Assembly: GCA_964348455.1 (NCBI GenBank) | Contig: CAYGCQ010000001.1 | Location: forward strand, 58,450-122,449 | Origin: an uncultured Pseudomonadales bacterium | GTDB taxonomy: Bacteria; Patescibacteriota; Microgenomatia; UBA1400; MFAQ01 | Length of the DNA: 64,000 bases | Direction of reading: 5' to 3' | Shown: positions 5,650 through 63,817 of the stretch, in pieces | Position numbering within the stretch: position 1 is the first letter of the stretch | Layout: each line of letters begins with the position of its first letter | The notes under the pieces: generated by a model | The model's input: the letters and a program-made list of their open reading frames with translations, nothing else | Told to the model about the DNA's origin: nothing | The model's database searches: none | Position numbers and translations under genes: made by a program

Positions 5650-5944
5650 GTCATTCCGGGTCGTAGAGTCGCCTTGGGAGACCTTGACCCGGAATCCAGC
5701 CCCACACCACCCACTCATTAATTTGTCATCCCCGCGAAGATGGACCACTGGCACCCGAGGGGATAGATCCACAATCACTCACCACCTCACCAGTCATTGC
5801 GAGTTTCGGTACCCGATCCCAGAGTCGCCTCAGGAGACACCGAAGCAACCTCACACCACCTCACCACACCGTCTCACCACCCACTCATTAATTTGTCATC
5901 CTCTTCGCACTCCTTGTCATTCCCGACCTGATCGGGAATCTATA
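5650..5944 (+). repeat. intergenic array of 5 heterogeneous hairpin-repeat units separated by CA-rich (caccac) spacers
   Basis: Units: GTCATTCCGGGtcgtagagtcgccttgggagaccttgACCCGGAATCC (5650-5697); GTCATCCCCGCGAAGatggaccactggcacccgaggggatagatcca (5725-5771); GTCATTGCGAGTTTCGGT...ACCGAAGCAACCTCAC (5793-5854); a degenerate unit; then the canonical 29-mer (5916-5944). Confidence 0.9.
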
Positions 5945-6345
5945 TAGATAAAGTACAATTTAATTGTGAAGAGATATTATGTGTATATTCTCGCAAGTTA
6001 TAAAAATGGTACGCTGTATATAGGTGTAACAGGAAATTTAGAAAATAGAATATCTATCCATAAAAACGATATTGTGAAGGGGTTTACAAAGAAATTTGCA
6101 GTACACAGTCTGGTTCATCTGGAGGAATTCGAGAATTCATTACAAGCTATAGCAAGAGAAAAACAACTAAAGCATTGGAAGAGAGATTGGAAAATTGAAC
6201 TCATTGAAAAATCAAATCCAGATTGGAATGATATATCTGATGAATTTCTCTAAAAAAAGTTGAACCCGTTTTTATAGATTCCCGATCAGGTCGGGAATGA
6301 CGATTGAAATATTCCACATATTTTTACTCCGTGATTCGCAATGAC
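5916..6345 (+). mobile_element. ~430 bp micro-element: GIY-YIG nuclease gene flanked by perfect 29-bp terminal inverted repeats (copy 1)
   Basis: Left end gtcattcccgacctgatcgggaatctata (5916-5944) is the exact reverse complement of tatagattcccgatcaggtcgggaatgac (6273-6301). A second partial inverted unit gtgattcgcaatgac lies at 6331-6345. The whole unit is duplicated identically at 9253-9682. Confidence 0.7.
5966..6253 (+). CDS. GIY-YIG nuclease superfamily protein (UPF0213/YhbQ-like), 95 aa
   Basis: YVYILASYKNGTLYIGVTGNLENRISIHKND matches the GIY-(x10)-YIG core with the conserved R and H/N that follow. Identical to the ORF at 9303-9590. Confidence 0.8.
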   Translation: MKRYYVYILASYKNGTLYIGVTGNLENRISIHKNDIVKGFTKKFAVHSLVHLEEFENSLQAIAREKQLKHWKRDWKIELIEKSNPDWNDISDEFL

Positions 6346-7823: not shown

Positions 7824-7828
7824 TATTT

Positions 7829-9010: not shown

Positions 9011-9016
9011 AAACCC

Positions 9017-9281
9017 GTCATTGCGAGTTTCGGTACCCGATCCCAGAGTCGCCTCTGGAGAGACCGTAGCAACCTCACACCTTTCACCACACCACCCACC
9101 ACACCACCCGTCATTGCGAGTTTCGGTACTACGAACCGAAGCAATCTCCGCTATTACACCACTCCACGAATGTCATCCTCGCGAAAGCGGGCCGATAGTA
9201 CCCGAATGGGTAGATCCACAAACACCACACAACACATCCTCAAAACACCCCAGTCATTCCCGACCTGATCGGGAATCTATA
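9017..9281 (+). repeat. intergenic array of 4 hairpin-repeat units with CA-rich spacers, ending in the left TIR of GIY-YIG element copy 2
   Basis: Units at 9017-9078 (GTCATTGCGAGTTTCGGT...long loop...AACCTCAC), 9110-9149 (GTCATTGCGAGTTTCGGTactacgaACCGAAGCAATCTCC), 9172-9219 (GTCATCCTCGCGAAAGCGGGccgatagtacccgaatgggtagatcca) and 9253-9281 (canonical 29-mer). Confidence 0.9.
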
Positions 9282-9682
9282 TAGATAAAGTACAATTTAA
9301 TTGTGAAGAGATATTATGTGTATATTCTCGCAAGTTATAAAAATGGTACGCTGTATATAGGTGTAACAGGAAATTTAGAAAATAGAATATCTATCCATAA
9401 AAACGATATTGTGAAGGGGTTTACAAAGAAATTTGCAGTACACAGTCTGGTTCATCTGGAGGAATTCGAGAATTCATTACAAGCTATAGCAAGAGAAAAA
9501 CAACTAAAGCATTGGAAGAGAGATTGGAAAATTGAACTCATTGAAAAATCAAATCCAGATTGGAATGATATATCTGATGAATTTCTCTAAAAAAAGTTGA
9601 ACCCGTTTTTATAGATTCCCGATCAGGTCGGGAATGACGATTGAAATATTCCACATATTTTTACTCCGTGATTCGCAATGAC
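9253..9682 (+). mobile_element. GIY-YIG micro-element copy 2, identical to 5916-6345
   Basis: Same 29-bp TIRs (9253-9281 and 9610-9638), same internal sequence and ORF, same gtgattcgcaatgac end (9668-9682). Flanking sequence diverges immediately outside. Confidence 0.7.
9303..9590 (+). CDS. GIY-YIG nuclease superfamily protein, identical second copy
   Basis: 95-aa translation identical to 5966-6253. Confidence 0.8.
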   Translation: MKRYYVYILASYKNGTLYIGVTGNLENRISIHKNDIVKGFTKKFAVHSLVHLEEFENSLQAIAREKQLKHWKRDWKIELIEKSNPDWNDISDEFL

Positions 9683-9691
9683 GCAAATTTT

Positions 9692-9723
9692 GAGTTTTAG
9701 AGTTTTTGAGTTTTAGAGTTTTT
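9692..9723. repeat. direct tandem repeat (gagttttagagttttt) x2 at the 3' end of the minus-strand gene
   Basis: Two adjacent 16-nt units. A related motif ttttagagttttagattttttgagttttt occurs at 61747-61779. Confidence 0.8.
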
Positions 9724-10838: not shown

Positions 10839-10857
10839 CTACCTCTAGTATATACTT

Positions 10858-11574: not shown

Positions 11575-11576
11575 CC

Positions 11577-11826
11577 GTCATCCCCGATCCAGGAGTCGCT
11601 TGGGAGACCCTGATCGGGGATCAATATAATTAAAATACTCTGTCATCCTCGCGAACGCGGGGATTCACAGAAACAAAAAAACAACACCATGTCATTCCAG
11701 CGAAGGCGGGCCGCTGGTCCCCGGAGGGGGAAATCCATCAAATAAAACAAATGATAAAAAACCCAAAAATCTTTATTAAAAAATAATAAATAACATTGTC
11801 ATTCCCGACCTGATCGGGAATCTATA
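11577..11826 (+). repeat. intergenic array of 4 hairpin-repeat variants ending in the canonical 29-mer directly upstream of the next start codon
   Basis: Units at 11577-11632 (GTCATCCCCGATCcaggagtcgcttgggagaccctGATCGGGGATC), 11642-11670 (GTCATCCTCGCGAACGCGGGGATTC), 11691-11740 (long GTCATTCCAGCGAAGGCGGGccgctggtccccggagggggaaatcca) and 11798-11826 (canonical). The ATG follows at 11830. Confidence 0.9.
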
Positions 11827-11829
11827 CAA

Positions 11830-13868: not shown

Positions 13869-13875
13869 TATTCTT

Positions 13876-13901
13876 GTCATTCCGGGCTTGACCCGGAATC
13901 C
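13876..13901 (+). repeat. hairpin repeat, type B (GTCATTCCGGGCTTGACCCGGAATCC), 10 nt upstream of ATG 13912
   Basis: Stem CCGGG/CCCGG, loop cttga. Intergenic between orn and a GT2 gene. Confidence 0.9.
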
Positions 13902-13911
13902 AGAAACTCAA

Positions 13912-16162: not shown

Positions 16163-16190
16163 TCGTCTTAGACATATATAATTACACTAC

Positions 16191-18008
16191 ATGCGTTACT
16201 TCTCTCAGATTATTCCCTCAATAGCCAAATTTATTTCACGATTTAGAGTAGAGATTATTTTGTTGCTTTTAATTGTTCCTGCAATCAGCGACATATTTAA
16301 GCCTGGTTTTATGCCTATGCACGATGATCTTCAAGTTCTTCGCTTGGTAGAAGTTCATAAATGTGTATTGGACGGCCAGATTCCTTGCCGTTGGGTGCCG
16401 GATGCTGGTTATGGTTATGGCTACCCTCTTATGGAGTTCTATCCACCTATGCCTTACTACCCGATGGAGCTCATGGTACTACTCGGTTCCGACTTCTTCT
16501 TACCGGTCAAGGTCATGTTTGCCTTAGCCTTCTTACTTAGTGGTCTGGGTATGTATCTATTAGCCAAGGAGTTCTTTGGTAAATGGGGAGGTGTTATAGC
16601 CGCCGTTCTGTATGTCTATTCTCCGTATCACTCTGTAGATGTATATGTTCGAGGCGCCATGAACGAAGCCTGGGGGATGGTCTGGTTCCCCTTTGTCCTT
16701 CTCTACATTTATAGATTAATACATAGTCATTCCCGACCTGATCGGGAATCTATAAAAATAAAATCCCAAAATACAATTTCTCGCGACTTTATCTACTTAA
16801 GCATCGCCCTCGCTCTCCAGCTAACCTCACACAACGTTATGACTTTAGTTTTTGCCCCCACGGCTATTATCTGGGCATTTTTCTGGATGTGGAAAGCAGA
16901 CAAATTTGAAAGGTTCAAAGAGCTCTTTTTTGCCGGGTTACTTGCCTTAGGACTTTCAGCTTTCTTCTTTATTCCCGTAGTCTTGGAGCAGAAATTTGTT
17001 CACGTAGACACCATGACCATCGGTTATTTCAATTACTTAGCTCACTTTGCTGATTTAAATCAACTATTCTGGACCCGTTTCTGGGGTTATGGCGGCTCTA
17101 CTTGGGGTCCGGAAGATGGGATGTCTTTCTCGATTGGTCACATTCAGTGGATCGGTGCCATACTCGCTAGCACAGTAGCTATTATGAGACTTTATCGACT
17201 CAAGTTTTACAAAAATGTATCTGTCATTGCGAGTCTCGTAGCCGAGCCGAAGCAATCTAAAAGTACAAAATCATCGGAAATAAATATGATGATTCTTCTG
17301 ATGATTTCTTTCGGCTTATTTTACGCTTTTCTCACTCATAGTCGATCAAACTTTATCTGGGAAAGGCTGTCAGTTCTTCAGTTTGCTCAGTTTCCTTGGC
17401 GACTCGTGGCATTGATTGTCTTTTACTTCTCTTTTGCTGCCGGATATGTGGGTACTATTACTATTCCTAAGTTTTTTAAGGCTATTATTTTTCCCATATT
17501 AATCATTGGCATTATTTTATTTAACATTCCCTTCTTCCGGTTTGAGCGTCATGTAAGGGTAACGATTCAAGAAAAAATGTCTGGACTTCAATGGGAGAAT
17601 CAGGTTACGGGTGGTATCTTCGACTATCTTCCTAGGACGGCTACCAGACCACCCGGCGCCCCTGCCTTCACTATTCCTCAATACATCGAAGGCAATGGTG
17701 GAATCTTGAACTATCGATCAGGGTCAAACTGGATTGCCTTTGATGCTTTCGTTTCTACTTCCTCAGCCAAAGTCATGCTTCCCATGTTTACATTCCAAGG
17801 TTTAAAAACAAAAGTCGATTCCCAGAGAGTGCTAACTGAAATGGATCCGGATCTAGGAAGAATAATCGTCAACCTGGATCAAGGACTTCATCATGTAGAA
17901 GCCAAAATTGGCTACACGAAAGTAAGGCTCTTGTCAGACTTTTTAACTTTTATTTCTCTTGCCATATTAATAAAGCTAATCTACCGTGATCGAAAACACA
18001 CCACCTGA
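16191..18008 (+). CDS. large polytopic membrane protein (possible GT-C glycosyltransferase) carrying two in-frame hairpin repeats
   Basis: 605 aa with at least 12 TM helices. Repeats at 16726-16754 (read as HSRPDRESI) and 17223-17259 (SVIASLVAEPKQS) keep the frame open. Confidence 0.5.
   Translation: MRYFSQIIPSIAKFISRFRVEIILLLLIVPAISDIFKPGFMPMHDDLQVLRLVEVHKCVLDGQIPCRWVPDAGYGYGYPLMEFYPPMPYYPMELMVLLGSDFFLPVKVMFALAFLLSGLGMYLLAKEFFGKWGGVIAAVLYVYSPYHSVDVYVRGAMNEAWGMVWFPFVLLYIYRLIHSHSRPDRESIKIKSQNTISRDFIYLSIALALQLTSHNVMTLVFAPTAIIWAFFWMWKADKFERFKELFFAGLLALGLSAFFFIPVVLEQKFVHVDTMTIGYFNYLAHFADLNQLFWTRFWGYGGSTWGPEDGMSFSIGHIQWIGAILASTVAIMRLYRLKFYKNVSVIASLVAEPKQSKSTKSSEINMMILLMISFGLFYAFLTHSRSNFIWERLSVLQFAQFPWRLVALIVFYFSFAAGYVGTITIPKFFKAIIFPILIIGIILFNIPFFRFERHVRVTIQEKMSGLQWENQVTGGIFDYLPRTATRPPGAPAFTIPQYIEGNGGILNYRSGSNWIAFDAFVSTSSAKVMLPMFTFQGLKTKVDSQRVLTEMDPDLGRIIVNLDQGLHHVEAKIGYTKVRLLSDFLTFISLAILIKLIYRDRKHTT
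16726..16754 (+). repeat. canonical 29-mer hairpin repeat inside CDS, frame b (HSRPDRESI)
   Basis: gtcattcccgacctgatcgggaatctata, exact. Confidence 0.9.
17223..17259 (+). repeat. hairpin repeat type D (GTCATTGCGAG...CCGAAGCAATCTA) inside CDS, in-frame
   Basis: gtcattgcgagtctcgtagccgagccgaagcaatcta. Confidence 0.85.
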
Positions 18009-19464
18009 CGCTCCATCGATACTGGAAGTCCAAGAGGTAAAGAGGCGTAGTGTCTCAGGTGTTCTCGCGCTCATTTCTCGTACTTTTATAATCCAAATTA
18101 TTTCCTTTGTTGCCACTCTTGCTCTTACTATTTTTCTCGATCCCAATACCTATGGTATTTTTTATCTTGTTTCTTCCGTCGTAAACTTCTTGGCCTATTT
18201 CTCGGACGTCGGTTTAGCCGCAGCTCTCATACAGAAAAAAGAAGCTATAACAGACGAAGATCTCTCTACTACTTTTACTATTCAGCAACTTTTGGTACTT
18301 AGTCTTCTGACCTTGCTTTTTATTCTGTCACCTTTTATTGGAAGTCAGTATCACATAGATCAATCGGGAATGTATCTACTCTACGCCATGGGAGTTTCGC
18401 TTTTTCTGAGTTCTCTAAAGACTATCCCTTCCATAATGCTGGAGAGAGAAATCAAGTTTAACAAACTCATTCTTCCTCAGGTTCTGGAAACTCTTACCTT
18501 TAACGGAATCGCCGTTTTTCTTGCTTGGCAAGGTTTTGGTGTCACCGCTTTTACTTTTGCAGTGCTCGGTAGGGGAGTTGTGGGGTTGATCGCTATGTAC
18601 ATTGTTTACCCCTGGAAACCCAAGATTGGAGTCAATCGAACTTCGCTCAAACACCTGCTAAAGTTTGGCCTTCCTTATCAGGTAAATACTTTTTTGGCAG
18701 TTTTAAAGGATGATGGTATGACCATTATTCTCACCAAGATTATCGGTACTCAGGGTTTGGGCTACATAGGCTGGGCGTCTCGTTGGGCGGGCCTACCACT
18801 TAGAATTGTCATGGATAACCTTACCAAGGTTTCCTTCCCGACTTTTGCTCGCTTGCAGCACGACAAAGAAAGACTGGCTAAGGCAGTAGAAATCAGCCTT
18901 AAGTACATGTGTCTACTGGCTTTCCCTATTCTGGTCGGTATGGGGTTTTTGGCTATTCCCATGACGCACTTAATTCCAAGATACGTAAAATGGCTACCCG
19001 CCATTATTCCTCTTTATCTTTATCTCTACAACTCAGCTTGGGCTAGTATCAGTACCAGTCTGACAAATTTACTGAATGCTACCGGTCATATAAAATCCAC
19101 TTTTAAACTAATGCTTATGTGGACAGGTCTTACCTGGGCAATCATGCCGATACTATCCATCAAGTTTGGTTATATGGGTGTTGCTTATGCCACAGCTTTG
19201 ATCGCCACATCCTCAATAGTTACAATTATTATGGCCAAGAAGTACGTCAGCTTTAGTATGATTCGAATCATAAAAACTCCAGTGCTCTCTTTACTGCCTA
19301 TGATTTTGTGGTTGTATTTATCGGTTGGATCAATTGGTTCATATTCTGCTTTGATAGCTATCCTTATTAGTTCAGCCATTATTTACTTTGGATCCATATT
19401 TATTTTGGAAGGTAAAACATTTTTTACCGATACGCTTAGTTACTTTAAGATAAAACATGCTTAA
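17986..19464 (+). CDS. Wzx-like oligosaccharide flippase (MOP superfamily polysaccharide biosynthesis protein)
   Basis: At least 12 TM helices. The N-terminus ISRTFIIQIISFVATLALTIFLDPNTYGIFYLVSSVVNFLAYFSDVGLAAALIQ is typical of Wzx/RfbX-family proteins. Confidence 0.65.
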   Translation: MIENTPPDAPSILEVQEVKRRSVSGVLALISRTFIIQIISFVATLALTIFLDPNTYGIFYLVSSVVNFLAYFSDVGLAAALIQKKEAITDEDLSTTFTIQQLLVLSLLTLLFILSPFIGSQYHIDQSGMYLLYAMGVSLFLSSLKTIPSIMLEREIKFNKLILPQVLETLTFNGIAVFLAWQGFGVTAFTFAVLGRGVVGLIAMYIVYPWKPKIGVNRTSLKHLLKFGLPYQVNTFLAVLKDDGMTIILTKIIGTQGLGYIGWASRWAGLPLRIVMDNLTKVSFPTFARLQHDKERLAKAVEISLKYMCLLAFPILVGMGFLAIPMTHLIPRYVKWLPAIIPLYLYLYNSAWASISTSLTNLLNATGHIKSTFKLMLMWTGLTWAIMPILSIKFGYMGVAYATALIATSSIVTIIMAKKYVSFSMIRIIKTPVLSLLPMILWLYLSVGSIGSYSALIAILISSAIIYFGSIFILEGKTFFTDTLSYFKIKHA

Positions 19465-22400
19465 AAAATTTCTTATAATCATCACCTTTATTTTTCTTAG
19501 CCTTCCGGGGAAAACTCTTGCTTTTAAGCCAGAAACTTTTGTCACTTTTGCCAATCCTGTTCGTGGTCCTGAAAATTGGCAAGCCGGCAAGCAAGACCCT
19601 CTGGCTCTTCCTATGCTTCAGTATGCCGAGTCCACATCCTCTGCTTATCCAATTACCTGGTTGCTTCGGTATGATGCAGTCAGAGATGCGACGATGTCTG
19701 CTTTTTTCAATAATCTCTCGACATCTGACAAGACTCAGACTCTAGGAGCATTCCTAGAAATTACACCTAAGTTATCTGCCGAAGCCAACGTCTCGTATCC
19801 AAAGGGCACCACTCCATTCAATGCCAATCGCATTTTTCTTTCCGGCTACTCGATAGATAATCGAGAAAATCTTATAGATACTTACATGGCCGCCTTCTTT
19901 GTTGAGTACGGCTACTATCCCAAGTCTGTCTCAGCCTGGAACCTTGATAGTTATAGTTTGCAGTACCTCCAATCCAGGTACTCAGTCCTAACAGCCATGA
20001 ACTGCGACGATCAGTACACCACTGATAACTATCGCATCTGGGGTGGTTATTTAGGTAGTCCCTACTTCCCGGATAAGAACAACTCCCTTATTCCGGCTAA
20101 ATCAGCTGACGAGCGTGTGAACTTGGCCATGGTACGCTGGGCTCAGAGAGACCTATTTAATTTTTACGGATATCGTTCTGAGTCTTCTTACTCAGTACAA
20201 GTAAATGATTATTTAGCTCAGGGACAAAACACAAAGTACTTTGAGAAACTCTTGGGATTGTATTCTCAGAGAAATTTAAATGAATTCACTTATATTAATA
20301 TTGGTTTGGAAAACGATTACGGTCTCATTGAATATAAAGCTGAGATAAAAAATGTTTTCAAAGCTCTTAAAGTAAACGAAGAAAAATTCAATCTCCACTT
20401 TATTTCGTTGTCCGATTTTGGTGATTGGTTCAAAGCTCGATACCCCGAAAGCACCCCGGCCTACTACTACGAGACCACAGATCCTTTGGAAAGTAGAGAA
20501 GGTAAGGTGTTTTGGTACCAGAGTCCTTGGTATCGCATCGGTTTCAAATCGGAAAAGGGGATTACTAAGATTATAGATTTCCGTGTGTACAATCGGGAAA
20601 TATATGAAGACTACTTTGCCACCCCGAATCAAGAACTTAGTCTCTACCAGGAAATTCCTGCCGTCATAGACTCGGTAAAGACACCAGGAACAGAAGTCAT
20701 TTTAGATCTGGATTTGGAAAAAGCTGAATTAGTCCACTCAAAGCAGTGGGATTACTGGCAAATTGCTTTTAAGTCGGGAGATGAAATTGTGACGCTAGAA
20801 CCGGAAAGAATTGTTTTTTCAGGTGTTTCTGCTCCGACGATTTCATCCAAAGATATCAAAGTAATCTCTAAGAAAAAAACAACCACTTGGGAATTAACTC
20901 CATACACTCCCTTTAAAAACTCTTCAAAGTTTACTTGGTTATTCTGGCTTCTTGCATCCCTAATAGTTGTCATCCTCGCGAAAGCGGGGATCCATCCCAA
21001 ATCACGACCTCCAACCTCGTCATTGCGAGATTCGGTAGACCGAACCGAAGCAATCTCCTCCACCAAACAATCCGTAATCTCTAAAAAAAATTCTTCTAAT
21101 GCCACAAAATCATCTGTCATCCTCGCGAAAGAGTTTACACTCCTGGGCGGGGGGATCCATCCGAACACTCGCACTCTTATAATTAGCATCTTAATCTCTC
21201 TCCTCGCCACCCTTACCGTCTTCCGTAATGGCCTTCTCTACCCCTTTGGCATGGGTTTCTGGGGTCCCAACGGACACGACGCTATCTTCCATCTCTCGCT
21301 CATAGAAAAATTCGCAGCCAGCCCCTTTAGTTTTTTACACCCCCAGATAGCCGGAGAGAGAATTGCCAACTATCATTTCATTTTTGATTTTCTGTCGGGG
21401 TTAGTCGTTAAGCTCTTTGGCATCTCTTCTCTGGATCTTTACTTTCGAGTCTTTCCTGTCGCTGCCGGTATCACTATAGTCTTACTCTTAAACAAGTTAC
21501 TAATATCTTGGAAATATAATCGCCAAGAAAGATTACTGGCAATCTTTCTAGCATTTCTGGCCGGTTCATTTGGCTTTATCCCAAAGCTTCTTACCGGCCA
21601 AAATTTTTTTACCGGAGAGTCCGCTTTCTGGGCCAACCAATCGGTCTCTATTTTTCTCAACCCCCCCTACGCCCTCTCCCTCATCCTCCTCCTAATTTTT
21701 CTTAACCGTATCACTAGTCATTCCCGACCTGAGCGGGTCGCTGATACTCGAAGGGGTAAATCAATACAAGACAGTTCAAAATTCTCGCCTGTCATCCCTG
21801 CAAAGGCAGGAATCCATCAAATTATTCCTCTAATTATTCTTGGTGCCCTCCTTGCCCAAACAAAAATCTACGCATTTATCCTACTTCTAGGAGCATTGTT
21901 ATTCTCCAAAAAATACAAACTGTTCTTCGGCGTTCTTGTTCTCGGAGTATTAATATCTTTGCCATTTACCGCCTTCGGTGGACCGTCACCCTTTCTCTTT
22001 TCTCCACTTTGGTTTCCCAGAAGTCTTTTTGCTTCATTTGATCGTTTTTACTGGCCCCAAATAGTTCAGGCCTGGCAAGCGTACGAAGCCTCAGGAAACT
22101 TTATTAAGCTAGCCTTGGTAAATTTATTTGCCTTAACAGTCTTTTTGATAGGAAACTTGGGCATGCGTTTTCTCGGCCTTATCCGAATTGCAAAAACAAA
22201 GGCGCCTAATGATTCCGAGACAATTGTTCGCTGGGTTATCTTTTTTGGACTAATCATTCCATTACTTTTCGTTCAGAACATCAATCCCTGGAACACGATC
22301 CAGTTCATGTACTACTCACTTTTTTTCTTAGCCATCTTCACCGCAAAATATATAAGCTCTCTTTTCACAGAAAAAACTGTCATCCTCGCGAATGAGGGAC

Positions 22401-22972
22401 GCTGGTCCCCGAAGGGGGAGATCCACAAACTGCCTCACCTTGTCATTCCGGGCTTGACCCGGAATCTATACAAATCTTCCATATTTTTAGTATTCATTCT
22501 TTTTGCCACCCTCACCTCCATTGGCACTCTCAAGGATTACATTGGTTTCTTCTCTTCTTCCCGTATCGGGTACACAGAACTATTGGCCCTGGATAAATTC
22601 CGAGACCAACCCAGAGGTATTGTCCTAGCTCCTTTTTACAGTCAGCCAAAGGCTTCAACCATCTACGCCCCCAAACCACTTTACTCATACGTATCCACAG
22701 CTTACATCTCCGCCATTTCAGGTCAACCGGAGTTCCTAGCCGATACTATCAATTTAGACATTACCGGCTTCGATTATACTGATCGCGCTAGGGACGTTCA
22801 GCGCTTTTACATTACCGAAGATAAACTGTGGGCAAACGACTTTTTATCTAATAATCATATTGAATACGTCTACGAAACCCCACTCCAAAAAATCAAGCTA
22901 GCTCCGGAAGATCTCAAATTAAAAAAAATCTTTGACTCTGGTGAAATAAATGTCTACGTTCGAGCACTGTAA
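19457..22972 (+). CDS. 1171-aa ORF: N-terminal secreted domain (~500 aa) plus C-terminal polytopic membrane domain, bridged by seven in-frame hairpin repeats (possibly two genes)
   Basis: Signal-like N-terminus MLKKFLIIITFIFLSLPGKTLA. Repeats at 20969-21162, 21717-21818 and 22379-22470. The downstream half has more than 10 TM helices. No stop in 3.5 kb. Confidence 0.45.
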   Translation: MLKKFLIIITFIFLSLPGKTLAFKPETFVTFANPVRGPENWQAGKQDPLALPMLQYAESTSSAYPITWLLRYDAVRDATMSAFFNNLSTSDKTQTLGAFLEITPKLSAEANVSYPKGTTPFNANRIFLSGYSIDNRENLIDTYMAAFFVEYGYYPKSVSAWNLDSYSLQYLQSRYSVLTAMNCDDQYTTDNYRIWGGYLGSPYFPDKNNSLIPAKSADERVNLAMVRWAQRDLFNFYGYRSESSYSVQVNDYLAQGQNTKYFEKLLGLYSQRNLNEFTYINIGLENDYGLIEYKAEIKNVFKALKVNEEKFNLHFISLSDFGDWFKARYPESTPAYYYETTDPLESREGKVFWYQSPWYRIGFKSEKGITKIIDFRVYNREIYEDYFATPNQELSLYQEIPAVIDSVKTPGTEVILDLDLEKAELVHSKQWDYWQIAFKSGDEIVTLEPERIVFSGVSAPTISSKDIKVISKKKTTTWELTPYTPFKNSSKFTWLFWLLASLIVVILAKAGIHPKSRPPTSSLRDSVDRTEAISSTKQSVISKKNSSNATKSSVILAKEFTLLGGGIHPNTRTLIISILISLLATLTVFRNGLLYPFGMGFWGPNGHDAIFHLSLIEKFAASPFSFLHPQIAGERIANYHFIFDFLSGLVVKLFGISSLDLYFRVFPVAAGITIVLLLNKLLISWKYNRQERLLAIFLAFLAGSFGFIPKLLTGQNFFTGESAFWANQSVSIFLNPPYALSLILLLIFLNRITSHSRPERVADTRRGKSIQDSSKFSPVIPAKAGIHQIIPLIILGALLAQTKIYAFILLLGALLFSKKYKLFFGVLVLGVLISLPFTAFGGPSPFLFSPLWFPRSLFASFDRFYWPQIVQAWQAYEASGNFIKLALVNLFALTVFLIGNLGMRFLGLIRIAKTKAPNDSETIVRWVIFFGLIIPLLFVQNINPWNTIQFMYYSLFFLAIFTAKYISSLFTEKTVILANEGRWSPKGEIHKLPHLVIPGLTRNLYKSSIFLVFILFATLTSIGTLKDYIGFFSSSRIGYTELLALDKFRDQPRGIVLAPFYSQPKASTIYAPKPLYSYVSTAYISAISGQPEFLADTINLDITGFDYTDRARDVQRFYITEDKLWANDFLSNNHIEYVYETPLQKIKLAPEDLKLKKIFDSGEINVYVRAL
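20969..20998 (+). repeat. hairpin repeat type E (GTCATCCTCGCGAAAGCGGGGATCCATCCC), in-frame (VILAKAGIHP)
   Basis: Stem CCTCGCG/CGCGGGG with a T-G pair that is a G-U wobble only on the + strand RNA. Confidence 0.9.
21019..21058 (+). repeat. hairpin repeat type D (GTCATTGCGAGATTCGGTagaccgaACCGAAGCAATCTCC), in-frame
   Basis: Nested stems ATTGC/GCAAT and TTCGGT/ACCGAA. Confidence 0.9.
21116..21162 (+). repeat. type E repeat with 15-nt insertion in the loop, in-frame
   Basis: gtcatcctcgcgaaag[agtttacactcctgg]gcggggggatccatcc. Confidence 0.85.
21717..21773 (+). repeat. long hairpin-repeat variant (GTCATTCCCGACCTGAGCGGGtcgctgatactcgaaggggtaaatca), in-frame
   Basis: Same architecture as 61439-61496. 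Confidence 0.85.
21791..21818 (+). repeat. hairpin repeat type F (GTCATCCCTGCAAAGGCAGGAATCCATC), in-frame (VIPAKAGIHQ)
   Basis: Stem CCTGC/GCAGG. Confidence 0.9.
22379..22429 (+). repeat. long type E variant (GTCATCCTCGCGAATGAGGGacgctggtccccgaagggggagatcca), in-frame
   Basis: Contains the inner GGTCCCCGAAGGGGGA hairpin shared with the 2364, 11691 and 51816 units. Confidence 0.85.
22442..22470 (+). repeat. type B repeat GTCATTCCGGGCTTGACCCGGAATCTATA, in-frame (VIPGLTRNLYK)
   Basis: Exact match to other type B copies. Confidence 0.9.
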
Positions 22973-23004
22973 CAAGAAGTTTCGTATCGATTACAATTAA
23001 ATAC

Positions 23005-23922
23005 ATGGCAAAAACAAAAATATCAGCGATAGTAAACACTAGGAACGAAGCAGATAATGTATTTGATTGCTTAAAGTCACTTAGTTTTTGTGATGAAATA
23101 GTCGTCGTTGATATGGAGTCAGAAGATAATACGAAAGAAATTGCAAAGCAATTTACAGACCATATATTTGATCATCGCAAAACTGGCTATGTAGAACCTG
23201 CCAGGAATTTCGCTATAAAAAAAGCAGTCGGAGATTGGCTTTTAATAGTAGATGCTGACGAGCGAATCCCAAAAACTTTAGCTGTCAAATTAATCGAGAT
23301 AGCCAATAACGGCGAAGTAGACTTTGTTAGAATTCCCAGAAAAAATTTAGTCTTTGGTCAGTGGCTTCAACATTCTAGATGGTGGCCGGACTACAACATT
23401 CGTTTCTTCAAGAGGGGTACGGTAGAATGGCAAGATGAAATCCACTCTGTTCCTATTACTTATGGAAACGGAATAAATTTAGATGCCGAGTCGTCACTAG
23501 CCATAGAGCATCACCATTACCGCAGTATTGACGAGTACTTCATCAGGGCTCTCAGATACTCAAACCAACAAGCCAAAGAGCTCATTGAGTCCGGATACAA
23601 GTTCGAACCTGCCGATATTATCAAAAAACCCATGGGAGAATTTCTCTCCCGTTTCTTCGCCGGTGAAGGTTACAAAGATGGTCTTCATGGCCTCATTGTA
23701 GCTATGCTTCAGTTTTTCTCAATTCTGCTTGTTTACCTTAAGGTTTGGCAGTTCGAGGGCCGAAAACCCGTCAAAGGTAGCGAATTTACCAAAGTTTGGC
23801 AAAAAGCTTTCATGGAGAAGTTCAAAGAACTTCGATACTGGTATCTCACAGTCCTCATCCAGAACTCTAGATCTAAGACCGAAGCCTTTTTCCTCAAGCT
23901 CCGCCGCCGTCTCCAAAAATAA
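23005..23922 (+). CDS. GT2 glycosyltransferase
   Basis: ISAIVNTRNEADNV, IVVVDMESEDNT and LLIVDADERIP motifs. Paralogous to 25222-26022 and 52102-52983. Confidence 0.7.
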   Translation: MAKTKISAIVNTRNEADNVFDCLKSLSFCDEIVVVDMESEDNTKEIAKQFTDHIFDHRKTGYVEPARNFAIKKAVGDWLLIVDADERIPKTLAVKLIEIANNGEVDFVRIPRKNLVFGQWLQHSRWWPDYNIRFFKRGTVEWQDEIHSVPITYGNGINLDAESSLAIEHHHYRSIDEYFIRALRYSNQQAKELIESGYKFEPADIIKKPMGEFLSRFFAGEGYKDGLHGLIVAMLQFFSILLVYLKVWQFEGRKPVKGSEFTKVWQKAFMEKFKELRYWYLTVLIQNSRSKTEAFFLKLRRRLQK

Positions 23923-23939
23923 ATTGATATACTGAATAC

Positions 23940-24239
23940 ATGATCACAGATCAGGAATTTTCACAACTCAGGACAATAATTAAAGAGGAAATTAATCTCG
24001 AAGTAAGAAAGGTTGTGGAAGATGTATTAGAGGAGAAGCTGGAACAGAAGCTGGAACAGAAGCTGGAACAGAAGCTAGATCAGAAACTGGACGAAAAACT
24101 CAAACCTATACATAGAAAGCTCAACAAGCTAGAAAAAGATTTGCAAGCAACAAATCACTTCTTTGATAACGAATACTTAGGTCACGAAAGAAGAATTACC
24201 AGAATCGAAACTCACCTAAATATTTCAAATCGTCTCTAA
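23940..24239 (+). CDS. hypothetical coiled-coil protein with tandem KLEQ heptad-like repeats
   Basis: EEKLEQKLEQKLEQKLDQKLDEKL is encoded by direct 12-nt DNA repeats (ctggaacagaag x3-4). Confidence 0.45.
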   Translation: MITDQEFSQLRTIIKEEINLEVRKVVEDVLEEKLEQKLEQKLEQKLDQKLDEKLKPIHRKLNKLEKDLQATNHFFDNEYLGHERRITRIETHLNISNRL

Positions 24240-49966: not shown

Positions 49967-51813
49967 AATCAACTGTCATTCCGGGCTTGACCCGGAATCT
50001 ATACAAATTTATTCCTATTATTCTTGTCTTGCTATTAGCTGCCTTTCTAAGATTAATCTCTCTGGACAAATTTCCGGCTGGTTTAAACGCAGATGAAGCC
50101 GCGATTGGGTACAACGCTTGGTCTTTGATCCAGACAGGTAAAGATGAACATTCTATGTCTTGGCCATTAGTATTTAGATCTTTCGATGACTACAAGCCTC
50201 CAGTTTATTTTTATCTTGTCCTCCCATTCGTAAAATTTTTAGGACTGAATGTCTGGTCTGTCCGTCTTCCCTCAGCACTAGACGGTATTGCCTCTGTCTA
50301 CCTCCTTTACTTAGTTGTCATTCTTTTATTCAAAAAAACAAATTCCACTAACAATCATGTCATCCTCGCGAAGGCGGGGATCCATCCGGATCACAATTCT
50401 TCTGATTTAGAATGTGACACAAAGACATATCGATTTGCCCTCCTCTCCGCCCTCCTTCTCGCTATTTCTCCTTGGCATCTTCAGTTCTCTCGGGGAGGAT
50501 GGGAGGTAAACGCAGCACTCTTTTTTATCCTTTTGGGGATTTGGTCTTTCTTCAAGGGCTTGGAAAAGCCAAAATATTTTTATCTCTTTGTCATTTCTAT
50601 GGCCGTCAGCCTCTACACATATCACTCCGCCCGCATCATCTCTCCCTTACTTGCCCTCACTCTCGTCATCCTCTTCTGGAAACAACTCTTCCCAATATCA
50701 TTACCCAAAGTCCATCGTGTCATTCCCGACCTGATCGGGAATCTATATAAATCTACCGCTTCAAAAACCTGTCTCATCGCCTGTCTTCTCGGCCTCCTCC
50801 TCTCCCTCCCTCTCGCCGGCCAGCTTCTATCCAAAGAAGGTCAATCGCGTTTTTCAGGAGTTTCTGTTTTTTCAGATACCGGTCCACTCTGGCAAGCACT
50901 GGAACAGCGTAGAGCTCACACCCCTGAAACTATTTTTATCAAATCTATTCACAACCAATATCTTTCCTACGGACTAAGATTTGTCAAAAATTATTTATCT
51001 CACTTTTCACCACGCTTTCTATTTGTTACCGGAGACGAGATTGCTCGTAGTAAAGTGCCTGGTATGGGGCAGACTTATTTGTTCTTGATACCATTTTATT
51101 TTCTAGGACTTTACTCCTTACTGAAACTAGATTCGAAGGGTAAAAAACTTATTTTTATTTGGTTCTTGATAGCGCCATTGGCTGCTGCTCTAACTTTTCA
51201 GTCACCTCATGCCCTACGCTCTCAGAACATGGTAGTGCCTCTATCGGTAATCTCTGCGCTTGGACTTTCAGTATTTATAAACCTGCTTCTAAGAGTAAAT
51301 AAGAAATGGCTCACTATTACGATTTCAACTTTACTATTTCTTTCTGGCACCTACTCCGTCGCTCGGTATCTACATCTATACTATGTTCATTACCCCAAAG
51401 AGCTCCCCTTTGCTTGGCAATTCGGTTTTGATCAAGTCGCTGCTTATACCAACGACAACTATGATAATTATGACCGTATCTTAATTTCCGATCGTTATGA
51501 TCAGCCCTACATACTTATGGCCTTTTTCCTAAAATATCCACCTGAAGTGCTCCAAAAAGAACTTGTCATGACCCCTCGCGATAAGTTTGGTTTCTCCACG
51601 GTCAGAAAGTTCGGAAAGTTTGAATTCCGATCAATTGACTATGGTCAAGATAAGTTGCTTCCAAATACCCTTATAATGGCCGCAGACGAGGCCGTCGATG
51701 ATGAAGCCGTAATCCATATTATCAACGACCCCGCCGGAATCCCAATGTACAAATTCATCTCGACAGAACCTGTTTTAAAAATTGATCTACCTATCACTGC
51801 CAAAGAAAAATAA
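49963..51813 (+). CDS. ArnT/PMT-family membrane glycosyltransferase (tandem paralog 6) carrying three in-frame repeats
   Basis: NADEAAIGYNAWSLIQTGKDEHSMSWPLVFRSFDDYKPP...SVRLPSALDGIA. Repeats at 49975 (N-terminus, MKSTVIPGLTRNLYKF), 50359 (VILAKAGIHP) and 50719 (VIPDLIGNLYKS). Confidence 0.7.
   Translation: MKSTVIPGLTRNLYKFIPIILVLLLAAFLRLISLDKFPAGLNADEAAIGYNAWSLIQTGKDEHSMSWPLVFRSFDDYKPPVYFYLVLPFVKFLGLNVWSVRLPSALDGIASVYLLYLVVILLFKKTNSTNNHVILAKAGIHPDHNSSDLECDTKTYRFALLSALLLAISPWHLQFSRGGWEVNAALFFILLGIWSFFKGLEKPKYFYLFVISMAVSLYTYHSARIISPLLALTLVILFWKQLFPISLPKVHRVIPDLIGNLYKSTASKTCLIACLLGLLLSLPLAGQLLSKEGQSRFSGVSVFSDTGPLWQALEQRRAHTPETIFIKSIHNQYLSYGLRFVKNYLSHFSPRFLFVTGDEIARSKVPGMGQTYLFLIPFYFLGLYSLLKLDSKGKKLIFIWFLIAPLAAALTFQSPHALRSQNMVVPLSVISALGLSVFINLLLRVNKKWLTITISTLLFLSGTYSVARYLHLYYVHYPKELPFAWQFGFDQVAAYTNDNYDNYDRILISDRYDQPYILMAFFLKYPPEVLQKELVMTPRDKFGFSTVRKFGKFEFRSIDYGQDKLLPNTLIMAADEAVDDEAVIHIINDPAGIPMYKFISTEPVLKIDLPITAKEK
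49975..50006 (+). repeat. type B repeat 12 nt after the annotated ATG, in-frame
   Basis: gtcattccgggcttgacccggaatctatacaaa. Confidence 0.9.
50359..50389 (+). repeat. type E repeat GTCATCCTCGCGAAGGCGGGGATCCATCCGG, in-frame
   Basis: T-G wobble position conserved. Confidence 0.9.
50719..50750 (+). repeat. canonical repeat, in-frame (VIPDLIGNLYKS)
   Basis: Exact 29-mer plus TATAAA. Confidence 0.9.
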
Positions 51814-61320: not shown

Positions 61321-61736
61321 GTCATCCCGACCGTAGGGGCCGATGGTACCCGAAGGGGTAGATCTCACCCCACTGTCATTCTGAACTTGATTCAGAATCC
61401 ATCCACCATCTTTCATCATTGCGAGGTACCACACCCTAGTCATTCCCGACCTGAGTGGGCCGCTGGTACCCGAAGGGGTGAATCTATATAAATTATTCCA
61501 CCCTCTCGTGATCCCTACCAAATGAAATGAGTGGAGGAATCTCTCTCCACTGTCATTCTGAACTTGATTCAGAATCCATCCCCACACCACCACTCACAAC
61601 TCAACCCGTCATGGAGTTTATCCGCCGTGGCGGAAGTTTCGGCAACCGATCCCAGAGTCGCCTCAGGAGACACCGAAGCAATCTCACACCCTCTACCAAA
61701 CCATTCGTCATTCCCGCGAAGGCGGGAATCCATCCC
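61321..61736 (+). repeat. largest intergenic array: 7 heterogeneous hairpin-repeat units
   Basis: Units at 61321-61371, 61375-61405 (GTCATTCTGAACTTGATTCAGAATCC), 61414-61437 (degenerate GCGAGG type), 61439-61496, 61552-61583 (second TGAA/TTCA unit), 61608-61687 (GTCATGGAGTTTATCCGCCGTGGCGGAAG...ACCGAAGCAATCTCAC) and 61707-61736 (GTCATTCCCGCGAAGGCGGGAATCCATCCC). Confidence 0.9.
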
Positions 61737-62677: not shown

Positions 62678-63817
62678 AATTCCACAAAAAAAACACAAGC
62701 CACTCTGCACCAAAAACTTCCCAAAGTCTCCATCATCATTGTCGACTACAAAAAGAAAAATCCATATTTAGTCGAGTGTTTGGACGCCATCCAAAATCAA
62801 ACCTACAAAAATTTCGAAATCATTCTCGTCTGTGACTATCCAGTTACATTGTCATCCTCGCGAAGGCGTGGATCCATCCCCTCACTCCGCCAAAAATCCT
62901 ACGGTCACTACGTCGGTCCGGCCGAAAAGCGAGATGTTGGTGCCAAGATGGCAAAGGGGGAAATTCTGGCCTTTATCGATGACGATGCTTTTCCATCACC
63001 TGACTGGTTAGCTAAAATAGTTCCTCATTTAAAAAACAAAGATATCGCAGGTGTGGGCGGTCCAGGAATCACCCCGACCAATGTATCCTGGCAGGAGCAG
63101 TCTTCCGGGTGGGCATCTGCCTCACCTGCTGGAGCTGGGAACTACACCTATCGATTTCTTCCCGGAAAAATGCAGTTTGTCGACGACTACCCCTCTATGA
63201 ATCTTGCAGTTCGCAAAACAGACTTCGATAGAGTCGGTGGTTTTGACTCGAATTTCTGGCCAGGCGAGGACACTAAGCTTTGCTTGGATCTTACACACAA
63301 GTTGGGCAAGAAAATAATTTATGAGCCAAAAGCTATTGTTTATCATCATAGACGCCCCATCTGGAAAGGTCACTTAATGCAAAACGGTAACTTCGGTCTT
63401 CATCGAGGATTTTTTGCTCGTATTCTTCCGGAAACATCCCTTAAGCTCATTTATTTCGCGCCATCATTTTTACTTCTCGGTCTTATTTATCTTTTATTTT
63501 TATCAAAATTAAATCAACCACCTTTTAACTATCTGCACTCATATGGCTGGTTGGCACTCAAACTATATTTCCTCCTCCTCACCCTCAACTCTCTCTGGAT
63601 TTTCTCCATCATTGCGAGGAGTGAAACGACGTGGCAATCCAGCACATCAACTTCCTTACACTCTGTCATTCCTGGCTTGACCAGGAATCCATCAAATAAA
63701 GTTCAATCAGCTATCCTCCAATCCCTCATTTCCATCCCCGTCATCTTTGTCACCCATCTTTGGTACGGCACCCGTTTCCTTCAAGGCTTCCTCTTTACCG
63801 AAAAATTATCCCGATAG
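62675..63817 (+). CDS. GT2 glycosyltransferase carrying three in-frame hairpin repeats
   Basis: VSIIIVDYKKKN, FIDDDAFPSPDW and GGPGITP GT2 motifs. Repeats at 62851-62881 (VTLSSSRRRGSIP), 63607-63640 and 63665-63694 (VIPGLTRNPSNK). Confidence 0.7.
   Translation: MNSTKKTQATLHQKLPKVSIIIVDYKKKNPYLVECLDAIQNQTYKNFEIILVCDYPVTLSSSRRRGSIPSLRQKSYGHYVGPAEKRDVGAKMAKGEILAFIDDDAFPSPDWLAKIVPHLKNKDIAGVGGPGITPTNVSWQEQSSGWASASPAGAGNYTYRFLPGKMQFVDDYPSMNLAVRKTDFDRVGGFDSNFWPGEDTKLCLDLTHKLGKKIIYEPKAIVYHHRRPIWKGHLMQNGNFGLHRGFFARILPETSLKLIYFAPSFLLLGLIYLLFLSKLNQPPFNYLHSYGWLALKLYFLLLTLNSLWIFSIIARSETTWQSSTSTSLHSVIPGLTRNPSNKVQSAILQSLISIPVIFVTHLWYGTRFLQGFLFTEKLSR
62851..62881 (+). repeat. type E repeat GTCATCCTCGCGAAGGCGTGGATCCATCCCC, in-frame, splitting the GT2 catalytic domain
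   Basis: Inserted between the conserved CDYP and the DxD region. Confidence 0.9.
63607..63640 (+). repeat. type C repeat (CATCATTGCGAGGAGTGAAACGACGTGGCAATCC), in-frame
   Basis: Same variant as 1313-1348. Confidence 0.85.
63665..63694 (+). repeat. type B-like repeat GTCATTCCTGGCTTGACCAGGAATCCATCA, in-frame
   Basis: Compensatory change: stem CCTGG/CCAGG instead of CCGGG/CCCGG with an identical loop. Confidence 0.9.

What the first reader, a model, noticed from the sequence alone, without database searches (positions are those of the whole stretch)
20969..20998. Type E repeats conserve a T-G pair that is a G-U wobble only in + strand RNA
All seven type E copies in the window are in + orientation. 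They lie at 9172, 11642, 20969, 21116, 22379, 50359 and 62851. Each keeps stem CCTCGCG / CGCGGGG, with U-G on the sense strand and C-A on the complement. A mismatch tolerated only as a wobble in sense-strand RNA points to function as a transcribed RNA hairpin, such as a processing or stability element, and not as a double-stranded DNA site.
Basis: seen in the sequence. Interest (0 to 1): 0.55.

Follow-up and report, generated by a model that had tools for sequence, protein, structure and literature searches.

The report
Ssn-nuclease hairpin repeats, T·G variant
The "type E" repeats are one variant of a hairpin repeat family already described across bacteria (CGTC-tagged REPs, also called dRS3, NTS or SRM) that pairs with a small GIY-YIG single-stranded-DNA nuclease, which this window encodes twice; the strand-specific T·G pair is real, but it fits a single-stranded DNA hairpin at least as well as an RNA hairpin.

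Summary
The 14-mer GTCATCCTCGCGAA occurs seven times, all on the + strand, at exactly the stated coordinates. Only four copies (11642, 20969, 21116, 50359) actually form the T·G pair. Copy 62851 has T·T, 9172 bulges the T, and 22379 pairs it with A.

Type E is a sub-variant of about 53 GTC-tagged hairpins in the window (48 on +, 5 on −). They match the published CGTC-1 REP, dRS3, NTS and SRM architecture. The window also encodes two identical 95-aa GIY-YIG proteins of SsnA type. Each is flanked by inverted SRM hairpins inside a 430-nt exact duplicate.

Published biochemistry shows SsnA binds and cuts only the forward strand of these hairpins as ssDNA. It does not act on dsDNA or RNA. A T·G tolerated on one strand is therefore expected without any RNA role.

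The T·G form is a real, widespread sub-family. It outnumbers the mirror C·A form 15 to 1 in IMG/VR. It is also conserved 26/26 nt at an orthologous site in a Collierbacteria relative. Across the family in general there is no significant wobble excess and no co-orientation with genes.

The "G·T pairs imply transcription" argument was already published for these repeats in 2013. Verdict: a new member of a known kind, of modest interest.

The parts
20969..20994 (+). Focal type E hairpin: GTC tag, 8-bp stem ATCCTCGC/GCGGGGAT with a T·G pair, loop GAAA, tail CCA. It lies in frame inside ORF 19457-22972 and encodes VILAKAGIH.
   Evidence: Matches the published SRM search sequence at 20968-20995. An identical 26-mer sits at the orthologous site of L441.
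50359..50384 (+). Type E short hairpin with T·G, loop GAAG, in frame inside ORF 49963-51813 (VILAKAGIH).
11642..11667 (+). Type E short hairpin with T·G, loop GAAC, tail TCA. Intergenic, within a cluster of four hairpins (11577, 11642, 11691, 11798).
21116..21159 (+). Type E copy with a 20-nt insertion in the loop. T·G is kept in the predicted fold. Inside ORF 19457-22972.
22379..22425 (+). Type E 5' half fused to a long-form 3' part (…CGCTGGTCCCCGAAGGGGGAGATCCA). The T pairs with A in the minimum-energy fold. Inside ORF 19457-22972.
   Evidence: (family D5).
9172..9218 (+). Type E 5' half in a long form. The T is bulged. Intergenic, directly upstream of the second ssnA unit.
62851..62876 (+). 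Type E copy with a T·T mismatch (GCGTGGAT). Inside glycosyltransferase ORF 62675-63817, read in another frame (SSSRRRGSI).
5916..6345 (+). 430-nt unit: SRM hairpin on +, then the ssnA-like gene, then two SRM hairpins on −. It is 100% identical to 9253-9682. Identity starts at the G of GTCAT and ends at ATGAC.
   Evidence: (D4).
5966..6253 (+). ssnA-like gene, copy 1: a 95-aa single-domain GIY-YIG nuclease.
   Evidence: Pfam PF01541 E=4.2e-15. At least 7995 homologs of about 95 aa.
9253..9682 (+). Second identical SRM-ssnA-SRM unit.
   Evidence: The gene was also called with GIY-YIG on contig L001.
9303..9590 (+). ssnA-like gene, copy 2.
61707..61732 (+). Canonical NTS-like hairpin CGTCATTCCCGCGAAGGCGGGAATCCA. 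It is the perfect-stem relative of type E.
19457..22972 (+). Host gene of the focal copy: a conserved 1171-aa membrane protein. Homologs are 1050-1070 aa. The hairpin-encoded peptides are lineage-specific in-frame insertions in three variable loops.

Best explanation
Type E is a sub-variant of the Ssn-related motif (SRM). The same family has been called NTS, dRS3 and CGTC-1 REP. It is a directional hairpin repeat of this form: (C/T)GTC tag, 8-bp stem starting AT, 4-nt loop, tail C(CA).

These hairpins act, and probably spread, as single-stranded DNA. The strand that reads GTCAT… folds. A small GIY-YIG nuclease (Ssn) recognises it and cuts a few nucleotides upstream. The window encodes this enzyme twice, each copy bracketed by inverted SRM hairpins in an IS-like unit.

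Only the forward strand has to fold. A C→T change that leaves a G·T pair on that strand is therefore tolerated. The mirror change gives C·A on that strand and is not tolerated.

The T, together with a compensated T-A→C-G change two pairs further out in the stem (towards the GTC tag), marks a sub-family that is inherited and copied as a unit. It does not represent seven independent events. The focal copy is additionally an in-frame insertion into a loop of a conserved membrane-protein gene.

Shown here: family architecture, the enzyme gene and its flanks, T·G far exceeding C·A at this pair, and orthologous conservation. Inferred: that this genome's Ssn actually binds and cuts type E, and that single-strandedness arises during replication, DNA uptake or repair.
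For: 1. Architecture. All short type E copies have GTC + ATCCTCGC + GAAN + GCGGGGAT + C. This matches the CGTC-1 definition in PMC3733652. Copies 20969 and 50359 match the published SRM search sequence (motif quoted from PMC11893778).

2. Partner enzyme. A 95-aa single-domain GIY-YIG protein is encoded at 5966-6253 and 9303-9590. Y7, Y18 and E65 have the same spacing as the catalytic Y6, Y17 and E64 of the 94-aa SsnA. Inverted hairpins flank it on both sides. In the Collierbacteria contig L123, three exact type E copies sit directly upstream of a 67%-identical homolog.

3. Published biochemistry. SsnA binds and cuts forward-strand ssDNA only, not RNA, dsDNA or the reverse strand. The GTC and the C after the palindrome are the key determinants. 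Both are invariant in type E.

4. Pairing is selected. In 157 copies from at least 120 species, 608 of 628 variable stem cells are Watson-Crick, with several pair types at two positions.

5. T·G specifically.
- A complete IMG/VR scan of GTCATCCNCGCGAANGCGNGGATC gave C-G 65, T·G 15, T-A 12, C·A 1, T·T 1 (binomial p=5e-4; 9 contigs against 1).
- With the 5' arm fixed, the partner of the T is G in 34 metagenome copies and A in 5.
- At the orthologous site in L441 the hairpin is 26/26 identical, while the upstream flank is 44/67 and the gene 67-72% identical.

6. DNA-parameter folding shows the same strand asymmetry: −6.4 against −4.7 kcal/mol.
Against: - No experiment links this genome's Ssn to type E. 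Its own flanking hairpins are the 5-nt-loop variant ATTCCCGA-CCTGA-TCGGGAAT, and SsnA recognition is partly sequence-specific.
- I could not compare the protein directly with N. meningitidis SsnA or with CDD cd10448.
- The near-uniform + orientation in this window (48 to 5) coincides with the coding strand. A sense-RNA role is therefore not excluded here.
- Family-wide, the G·T-type excess over A·C-type is not significant. The 15 to 1 ratio could partly reflect expansion of one lineage.
- Three of the seven window copies do not form the T·G pair.
Confidence: 0.7

Rival explanations
1. Sense-strand RNA hairpin. The repeats are transcribed within mRNAs and act as stability, processing or translation-modulating hairpins. 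T·G is kept because it is a G·U wobble in RNA.
For: - In the window all type E copies, and 48 of 53 family members, are on the coding strand of the surrounding + genes.
- RNA folding is strongly asymmetric: −13.0 against −8.8 kcal/mol.
- Many 5-nt-loop copies sit between a stop codon and the next start codon in unidirectional gene runs.
- Di Nocera et al. made this argument for CGTC REPs from gene context and G·T frequency.
Against: - The same asymmetry holds for ssDNA.
- The conserved unpaired GTC and C flanks match the determinants of an ssDNA nuclease that does not bind RNA.
- In other genomes the family shows no co-orientation with genes: 111 to 87 in long ORFs; in low-GC contigs 9 to 6 inside and 33 to 28 outside.
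- There is no T-run or terminator-like context and no Rfam match.
- The family-wide wobble excess is not significant.
- Five of seven type E copies lie inside coding sequence, where they are translated.
Confidence: 0.15
2. Neutral founder mutation. The T arose once in a master copy and was propagated by copying. The wobble has no selective meaning.
For: - All seven copies share an identical 14-nt 5' half.
- Three copies lack the T·G pair.
- Family-wide G·T-type against A·C-type mismatches are 10 to 6 and 15 to 7, not significant.
Against: - At this pair T·G outnumbers C·A 15 to 1 in IMG/VR and is about as common as the fully compensated T-A at 12.
- T·G occurs in very different taxa and habitats: Uhrbacteria, a Nitrosomonas MAG, Collierbacteria, and soil and marine metagenomes.
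- It is unchanged at an orthologous site where flanking DNA has diverged to about 66-70% identity.
Confidence: 0.1
3. Protein-level selection. In frame 1 the T changes Pro (CCC) to Leu (CTC), giving VILAKAGIH instead of VIPAKAGIH. Leu would be favoured where the insert extends a transmembrane helix.
For: - Four of five intragenic type E copies are read in frame 1.
- The focal copy directly follows a hydrophobic segment, FTWLFWLLASLIVVILAKAGIH.
Against: - Intergenic copies carry the same T: 9172, 11642, L438 12038 and 14160, and three in L123.
- Copy 62851 is read in another frame.
- The variant is common in unrelated genomes, where it is mostly intergenic.
Confidence: 0.03
4. Palindromic double-stranded DNA binding site for a dimeric protein.
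For: A near-palindromic core, with compensatory changes that would also preserve dyad symmetry.
Against: - The asymmetric conserved flanks (GTC… / …C) and loop give the element a direction.
- The T·G variant breaks dyad symmetry, yet it is abundant while C·A is not.
- SsnA shows no activity on dsDNA.
Confidence: 0.02

Closest known systems
NTS / Ssn-related motifs with SsnA GIY-YIG ssDNA nuclease (Chenal et al. 2025, Nat Commun, PMC11893778)
   Same: - HGTC tag, AT-initiated 8-bp stem, short loop, C after the palindrome.
- Hundreds-of-copies dispersed hairpins.
- A single-domain GIY-YIG gene of about 95 aa flanked on both sides by the hairpins.
- Clustering around envelope and surface genes.
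- Directionality.
   Different: - Stem sequence is ATCCTCGC/GCGGGGAT with a T·G pair, not ATTCCCGC/GCGGGAAT.
- The host is a Collierbacteria-like (CPR) organism.
- About half of the copies lie inside genes in frame (25 of 48 + copies), against 2% in N. meningitidis.
- Copies are almost all singletons in one orientation.
- Enzyme activity is untested here.
CGTC-tagged REPs, family CGTC-1 (Di Nocera et al. 2013, PMC3733652); includes Neisseria dRS3 and Rickettsia RPE-6
   Same: - (C/T)GTC tag, 8-bp stem beginning AT, 4-nt loop, CCA tail.
- Intragenic in-frame copies, as in R. conorii.
- G·T pairs in stems were already noted and read as a sign of transcription.
   Different: - The paper describes mostly head-to-head dimers; here copies are singletons.
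- In 2013 no dedicated enzyme was known; here an ssnA-type gene is present.
REP/REPIN elements with RAYT transposases; IS200/IS605
   Same: - Short hairpin repeats with an unpaired tag.
- The nuclease gene is flanked by inverted copies.
- Recognition of ssDNA hairpins on one strand.
- Clusters of repeats.
   Different: - The tag is GTAG, not GTC.
- The enzyme is an HUH/Y1 transposase, not GIY-YIG.
- Mobility of the Ssn unit has not been demonstrated.
Rickettsia palindromic elements (RPE)
   Same: Palindromic repeats inserted in frame into conserved protein genes, adding peptide segments in loops.
   Different: Classical RPE-1 is 100-150 bp. Only RPE-4 and RPE-6 correspond to CGTC hairpins. The host lineage also differs.

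Membership tests
SRM / NTS (Ssn-related motif) | Matches the published degenerate search sequence HGTCWYN(0-2)YYVSBRHN(0-5)WNVSBRGN(0-2)RNCYNB | tested here: met
   The focal copy (20968-20995) and 50358-50385 match, as does the canonical 61706. The other five type E copies do not: 11642 has a different tail, 62851 has a mismatch, and three are long forms. The motif was transcribed from the plain text of the paper.
SRM / NTS (Ssn-related motif) | Directional hairpin with conserved GTC immediately 5' of the palindrome and C immediately 3' | tested here: met
   All short type E copies read GTC-ATCCTCGC-GAAN-GCGGGGAT-C, except 11642, whose tail is T.
SRM / NTS (Ssn-related motif) | The genome encodes a single-domain GIY-YIG Ssn homolog of about 94 aa flanked by the motif on both sides | tested here: met
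   Two identical 95-aa genes, each with an inverted GTCATTCCCGACCTGATCGGGAATCTATA on either side. In L123, type E itself flanks the homolog.
SRM / NTS (Ssn-related motif) | The protein belongs to CDD cd10448 or gives E<1e-10 to N. meningitidis SsnA | not testable with these tools
   Neither CDD nor the Nm SsnA sequence was available. Indirect support: PF01541; only weak similarity to UPF0213 structures; Y/Y/E spacing identical to the published catalytic residues; E=6e-24 to a Sphingorhabdus homolog next to an NTS-type hairpin.
SRM / NTS (Ssn-related motif) | Bound and cleaved by the cognate Ssn as forward-strand ssDNA only | not testable with these tools
   Biochemical property, shown for four homologs in PMC11893778.
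CGTC-1 REP (Di Nocera 2013) | (C/T)GTC tag, 8-bp stem with A-T and T-A as the first two pairs, 4-nt loop, 3-nt tail fitting CCA | tested here: met
   for 20969, 50359 and 62851. Copy 11642 has tail TCA.
CGTC-1 REP (Di Nocera 2013) | Predominantly organised as head-to-head dimers | tested here: not met
   In the window the copies are singletons or same-orientation clusters, 48 on + and 5 on −. This is a typical feature of the family, not a defining one.
Neisseria dRS3 | ATTCCC-N8-GGGAAT | tested here: not met
   Type E reads ATCCTC-N8-GGGGAT. It is a relative of dRS3, not dRS3 itself. Copy 61707 does fit.
Rfam RNA families | Reaches the gathering score of any of 4227 covariance models | tested here: not met
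   no match in the whole window.
Intrinsic terminator | GC-rich hairpin followed by a T-run | tested here: not met
   None of the 21 terminator-like sites in 5000-24000 coincides with a type E copy, and the count is not above shuffles. The sequences after the hairpins are C/A-rich.
GTAG REP / RAYT system | GTAG tag and an associated Y1 (HUH) transposase | tested here: not met
   The tag is GTC(A). The gene flanked by the repeats is GIY-YIG, not Y1. The rest of the window was not screened for Y1 transposases.

The most novel reading that the evidence does not exclude
The 430-nt SRM-ssnA-SRM unit is an active mobile element driven by a GIY-YIG ssDNA nuclease. In this Collierbacteria-like genome its solo hairpins insert strand-specifically, so that nearly all point one way along a replichore. 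They often land in frame inside genes and next to existing hairpins. The T·G sub-family persists because only the top strand is ever the substrate. If true, Ssn/SRM would be a new class of ssDNA transposon, analogous to IS200/IS605 and REP-RAYT but built on a different nuclease fold, and a source of peptide insertions in CPR membrane proteins.
Probability: 0.25. Interest if true: 0.7.

Novelty: new member of a known kind. Interest (0 to 1): 0.3.

Why it matters
The finding itself does not open a new question. The repeat family, its partner nuclease, and even the "G·T pairs suggest a single-stranded or transcribed role" argument are all published.

What the window adds is a clean natural example in a candidate-phyla-radiation lineage.
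- Two 100% identical SRM-ssnA-SRM units have edges that fall exactly on the GTCAT tags.
- Hairpins are almost all in one orientation.
- In-frame hairpin insertions accumulate at the same loops of a conserved membrane protein in related genomes.
- A T·G variant far outnumbers its mirror C·A form.

Together these observations make testable the open hypothesis of Chenal et al. that the NTS-ssnA-NTS unit is, or was, a mobile element acting on one DNA strand.

Tried and rejected
- Rfam scan of the window found nothing, as did the tRNA scan.
- Promoter and terminator scan of 5000-24000: counts equal those of shuffles, and no site falls on a type E copy.
- I searched for the GIY-YIG gene next to hairpins in 120 loci from other species. 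Only 1 of 120 (L103) has it within 8 kb. This is uninformative, because dispersed repeats need not neighbour the gene. The reverse test, hairpins around ssnA homologs, is the published one, and it held in L123 and L124.
- NCBIfam gave no family above cut-off for the nuclease. PDB gave only weak UPF0213 matches.
- A general wobble-excess test across the family was not significant in two samples, so I do not claim general G·T tolerance.
- The orientation-versus-gene test in other genomes showed no bias. High-GC contigs produce spurious long ORFs, so I repeated it on low-GC contigs only.
- I tried to recover the longer source contig, or more of the same genome, to separate replication direction from transcription direction. 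I obtained only about 10 kb past the 3' end (L438); on the 5' side the contig (L439) ends about 2.2 kb upstream of the window. The window's − strand genes (about 10 kb) carry no hairpins, so the two explanations for orientation stay confounded.
- GC skew is negative throughout. I did not use it to assign the replication strand, because C/T-rich membrane-protein coding sequence and the C-rich repeats themselves bias it.
- The 14-mer metagenome scan returned about 85 chance matches in unrelated coding DNA out of 127 hits. Only hits with a hairpin context were used.
Full report
**Observation.**

The 14-mer GTCATCCTCGCGAA is present seven times, all on the + strand, at 9172, 11642, 20969, 21116, 22379, 50359 and 62851. 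No shuffle comes close to this count.

Reading the copies and folding them gives four different situations.
- 11642, 20969 and 50359 are compact hairpins GTC-ATCCTCGC-GAAN-GCGGGGAT-C(CA) with one T·G pair.
- 21116 keeps that pair around a 20-nt loop insertion.
- 62851 has T·T.
- 9172 and 22379 join the same 5' half to a longer 3' part, where the T is bulged or pairs with an A.

So the wobble exists in four of seven copies. The seven share an identical 5' half, so they count as roughly one inherited change, not seven. Two more type E copies, also on +, lie within 10 kb beyond the window on the same contig (L438).

**Context in the window.**

Type E is one flavour of a large superfamily of GTC-tagged hairpins. 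The commonest is GTCATTCCCGACCTGATCGGGAATCTATA. Other flavours include:
- TTCCGGG/CCCGGAA
- TTCTGAA/TTCAGAA
- TTCCCGC/GCGGGAA
- TTCCTGC/GCAGGAA
- long GTCATTGCGAG…GAAGCAATC forms

A census by 5' arm gives 49 on + and 6 on −. After removing one chance 11-mer and one self-palindrome, this is 48 on + and 5 on −. Four of the five − copies are the right-hand ends of two gene-bearing units described below.

About half of the + copies (25 of 48) lie inside long + strand ORFs, mostly with GTC read as Val. They give peptides such as VILAKAGIH, VIPGLTRNLYK and VIPAKAGIH. The genes form a glycosyltransferase, PMT-like and polysaccharide-export cluster.

The host ORF of the focal copy is a real, conserved membrane protein. 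Its closest named homologs are from Candidatus Collierbacteria, Microgenomates and Woesebacteria. They are 1050-1070 aa, against 1171 aa here. The alignment shows that the hairpin-encoded segments are lineage-specific insertions in three variable loops.

**What it is.**

Among 157 copies, 608 of 628 variable stem positions are Watson-Crick, and two positions show several pair types. The hairpin is therefore under selection for pairing.

The literature identifies the family. Di Nocera et al. 2013 defined "CGTC-tagged REPs" as follows: (C/T)GTC tag, 8-9 bp stem beginning AT, 4-5 nt loop, CCA tail. CGTC-1 equals Neisseria dRS3 and Rickettsia RPE-6. The same paper describes intragenic in-frame copies and makes the explicit remark that frequent G·T pairing suggests transcription.

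Chenal et al. 2025 showed that the oriented form (NTS, CGTCATTCCCGCGMAVGCGGGAATCYRG, generalised as SRM) is the target of SsnA. SsnA is a 94-aa single-domain GIY-YIG nuclease. Its properties are:
- It binds the forward strand as ssDNA and cuts a few nucleotides upstream.
- It is inactive on dsDNA, RNA and the reverse strand.
- The GTC governs cleavage, and the C after the palindrome governs binding.
- Its gene is typically flanked by SRMs on both sides.

**Tests of membership.**

The focal copy and 50359 match the published SRM search sequence. The window encodes a 95-aa GIY-YIG protein twice (5966-6253 and 9303-9590; PF01541 E=4e-15). Y7, Y18 and E65 are spaced exactly as the published catalytic Y6, Y17 and E64.

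Each gene lies in a 430-nt block that is 100% identical between the two loci. The block begins exactly at the G of a + strand GTCAT hairpin and ends exactly at the ATGAC of a − strand one. The protein has at least 7995 homologs of about 95 aa; the nearest named one (67% identity) is from Collierbacteria. On that contig, three exact type E copies sit immediately upstream of the gene.

I could not compare the protein with Nm SsnA or cd10448 directly, and activity is untested.

**The T·G pair.**

Relative to the canonical stem, type E carries one compensated change (T-A→C-G) and one C-G→T·G change. Folding is asymmetric with both parameter sets. As DNA the + strand gives −6.4 and the − strand −4.7 kcal/mol. 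As RNA the values are −13.0 and −8.8.

A complete IMG/VR scan that left both partners of this pair free gave C-G 65, T·G 15, T-A 12, C·A 1 and T·T 1. The T·G copies come from 9 contigs and the C·A copy from 1. With the 5' arm fixed, metagenome copies have G opposite the T 34 times and A 5 times.

The syntenic Collierbacteria locus L441 carries the same 26-mer at the same position of the orthologous gene. It is 26/26 identical, against 44/67 in the upstream flank and 67-72% over the gene. A second T·G copy in L441 sits at the site corresponding to window 22379.

So the T·G form is a genuine, persistent sub-family, and the mirror mismatch is rare. General tolerance of wobbles is not shown, however. 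Single mismatches across unbiased samples are G·T-type 10, A·C-type 6 and other 8 (p=0.45). A broader hairpin set gave 15, 7 and 10 (p=0.13).

**RNA or ssDNA?**

The wobble argument only says that one strand folds. Several things favour ssDNA.
- The conserved unpaired flanks match the mapped Ssn determinants.
- The enzyme gene is present.
- The published enzyme does not bind RNA.
- In other genomes the family is not co-oriented with genes: 111 to 87 inside long ORFs; in low-GC contigs 9 to 6 inside and 33 to 28 outside.
- The copies are not terminator-like and match no Rfam family.

What keeps the RNA reading alive is that in this window nearly every copy is on the coding strand. The window lies on one side of any skew turn, and its few − strand genes carry no hairpins. 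Transcription direction and replication direction therefore cannot be separated here.

**Mechanism proposed.**

The forward strand, when single-stranded during replication, DNA uptake or repair, folds into the hairpin. Ssn binds the stem plus the 3' C and nicks upstream of GTC. The identical 430-nt units bounded by GTCAT support the IS-like reading raised by Chenal et al.

Synteny supports it too. In L442 the two convergent genes that flank the window's second unit overlap directly. In the window they are separated by 713 nt of hairpins plus the ssnA unit. The intergenic site before the PMT gene has one hairpin in L441 and L442 but four in the window.

These steps are inferred, not shown.

**Verdict.**

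The element is a new member (a T·G sub-variant in a CPR lineage) of a known repeat and nuclease system. Interest is modest. The mobile-element reading is the part worth following up.

Noticed in passing
window 5916-6345 and 9253-9682: Two 100% identical 430-nt units. Each has a + hairpin, a 95-aa GIY-YIG (ssnA-like) gene and two − hairpins. Identity starts exactly at GTCAT and ends exactly at ATGAC, with no obvious target-site duplication. Both units sit just downstream of a − strand gene. They look like a recently duplicated IS-like element.
   Followed up: partly
window 19457-22972 (loops near 20969-21160, 21717-21815, 22379-22470); L441 11513 and 12698-12773: Hairpin-encoded peptides are in-frame insertions at three variable loops of a conserved membrane protein. 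The same loops carry hairpin-derived segments in related Collierbacteria proteins (P0122, P0123, P0128) but not in others (P0134, P0155). These are insertion hot spots or old shared insertions.
   Followed up: partly
window 11577-11830 compared with L441 2422 and L442 2499; window 9010-9723 compared with L442 641-644: Hairpin clusters grow at fixed intergenic sites. There is one conserved hairpin before the PMT gene in two relatives but four in the window. A convergent gene junction that overlaps by 4 nt in L442 holds three hairpins plus the ssnA unit in the window.
   Followed up: partly
window 47050-47143: The only − strand hairpin not attached to an ssnA unit. It forms a tail-to-tail pair (+ short form, − long form) inside ORF 46287-48245.
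   Followed up: no
window 51816-51837: GTCATTCCTGCGCAGGAATGAC is a perfect 22-nt palindrome in which the tag itself is part of the stem. It is followed by the long-form 3' module.
   Followed up: no
window 1358, 11798, 26033, 47536, 48614 and others: The 5-nt-loop hairpins carry a conserved 3' extension, CTATAYAAAT. They often end 10-40 nt before the start codon of the next + gene; at 11830 the ATG lies inside the extension. A possible role in the intercistronic or 5' leader region was not tested.
   Followed up: no
window 9676-9732 and 61737-61793: Short runs of an approximately 8-nt unit (GAGTTTTA/GAGTTTTT) lie next to hairpin clusters, just outside gene ends.
   Followed up: no
window 24034-24105: A 12-nt tandem repeat, AGAAGCTGGAAC, in about 5-6 copies within a small ORF between two glycosyltransferase genes.
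   Followed up: no
window 29022, 40482, 43032, 48335, 50092: A conserved 27-nt stretch, GATGARGCNGCNNTTGGTTACAAYGC, recurs in five large PMT-like membrane-protein genes. It is a paralogous protein motif, not a mobile repeat.
   Followed up: no
loci L245-L329 (IMG/VR): The ATCC(C/T)CGC hairpin sub-variant occurs in 85 stretches of contigs classified as viral, often several copies in the same orientation per contig. Whether these are phages, prophage flanks or misclassified host DNA was not examined.
   Followed up: no
L123 10001-20288: In the Collierbacteria contig, the ssnA homolog and its hairpin cluster lie next to a type IV pilus / competence-like gene cluster (PilM, pilins, prepilin peptidase, T2SS E and F). 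This is of note because SsnA modulates natural transformation in Neisseria.
   Followed up: no
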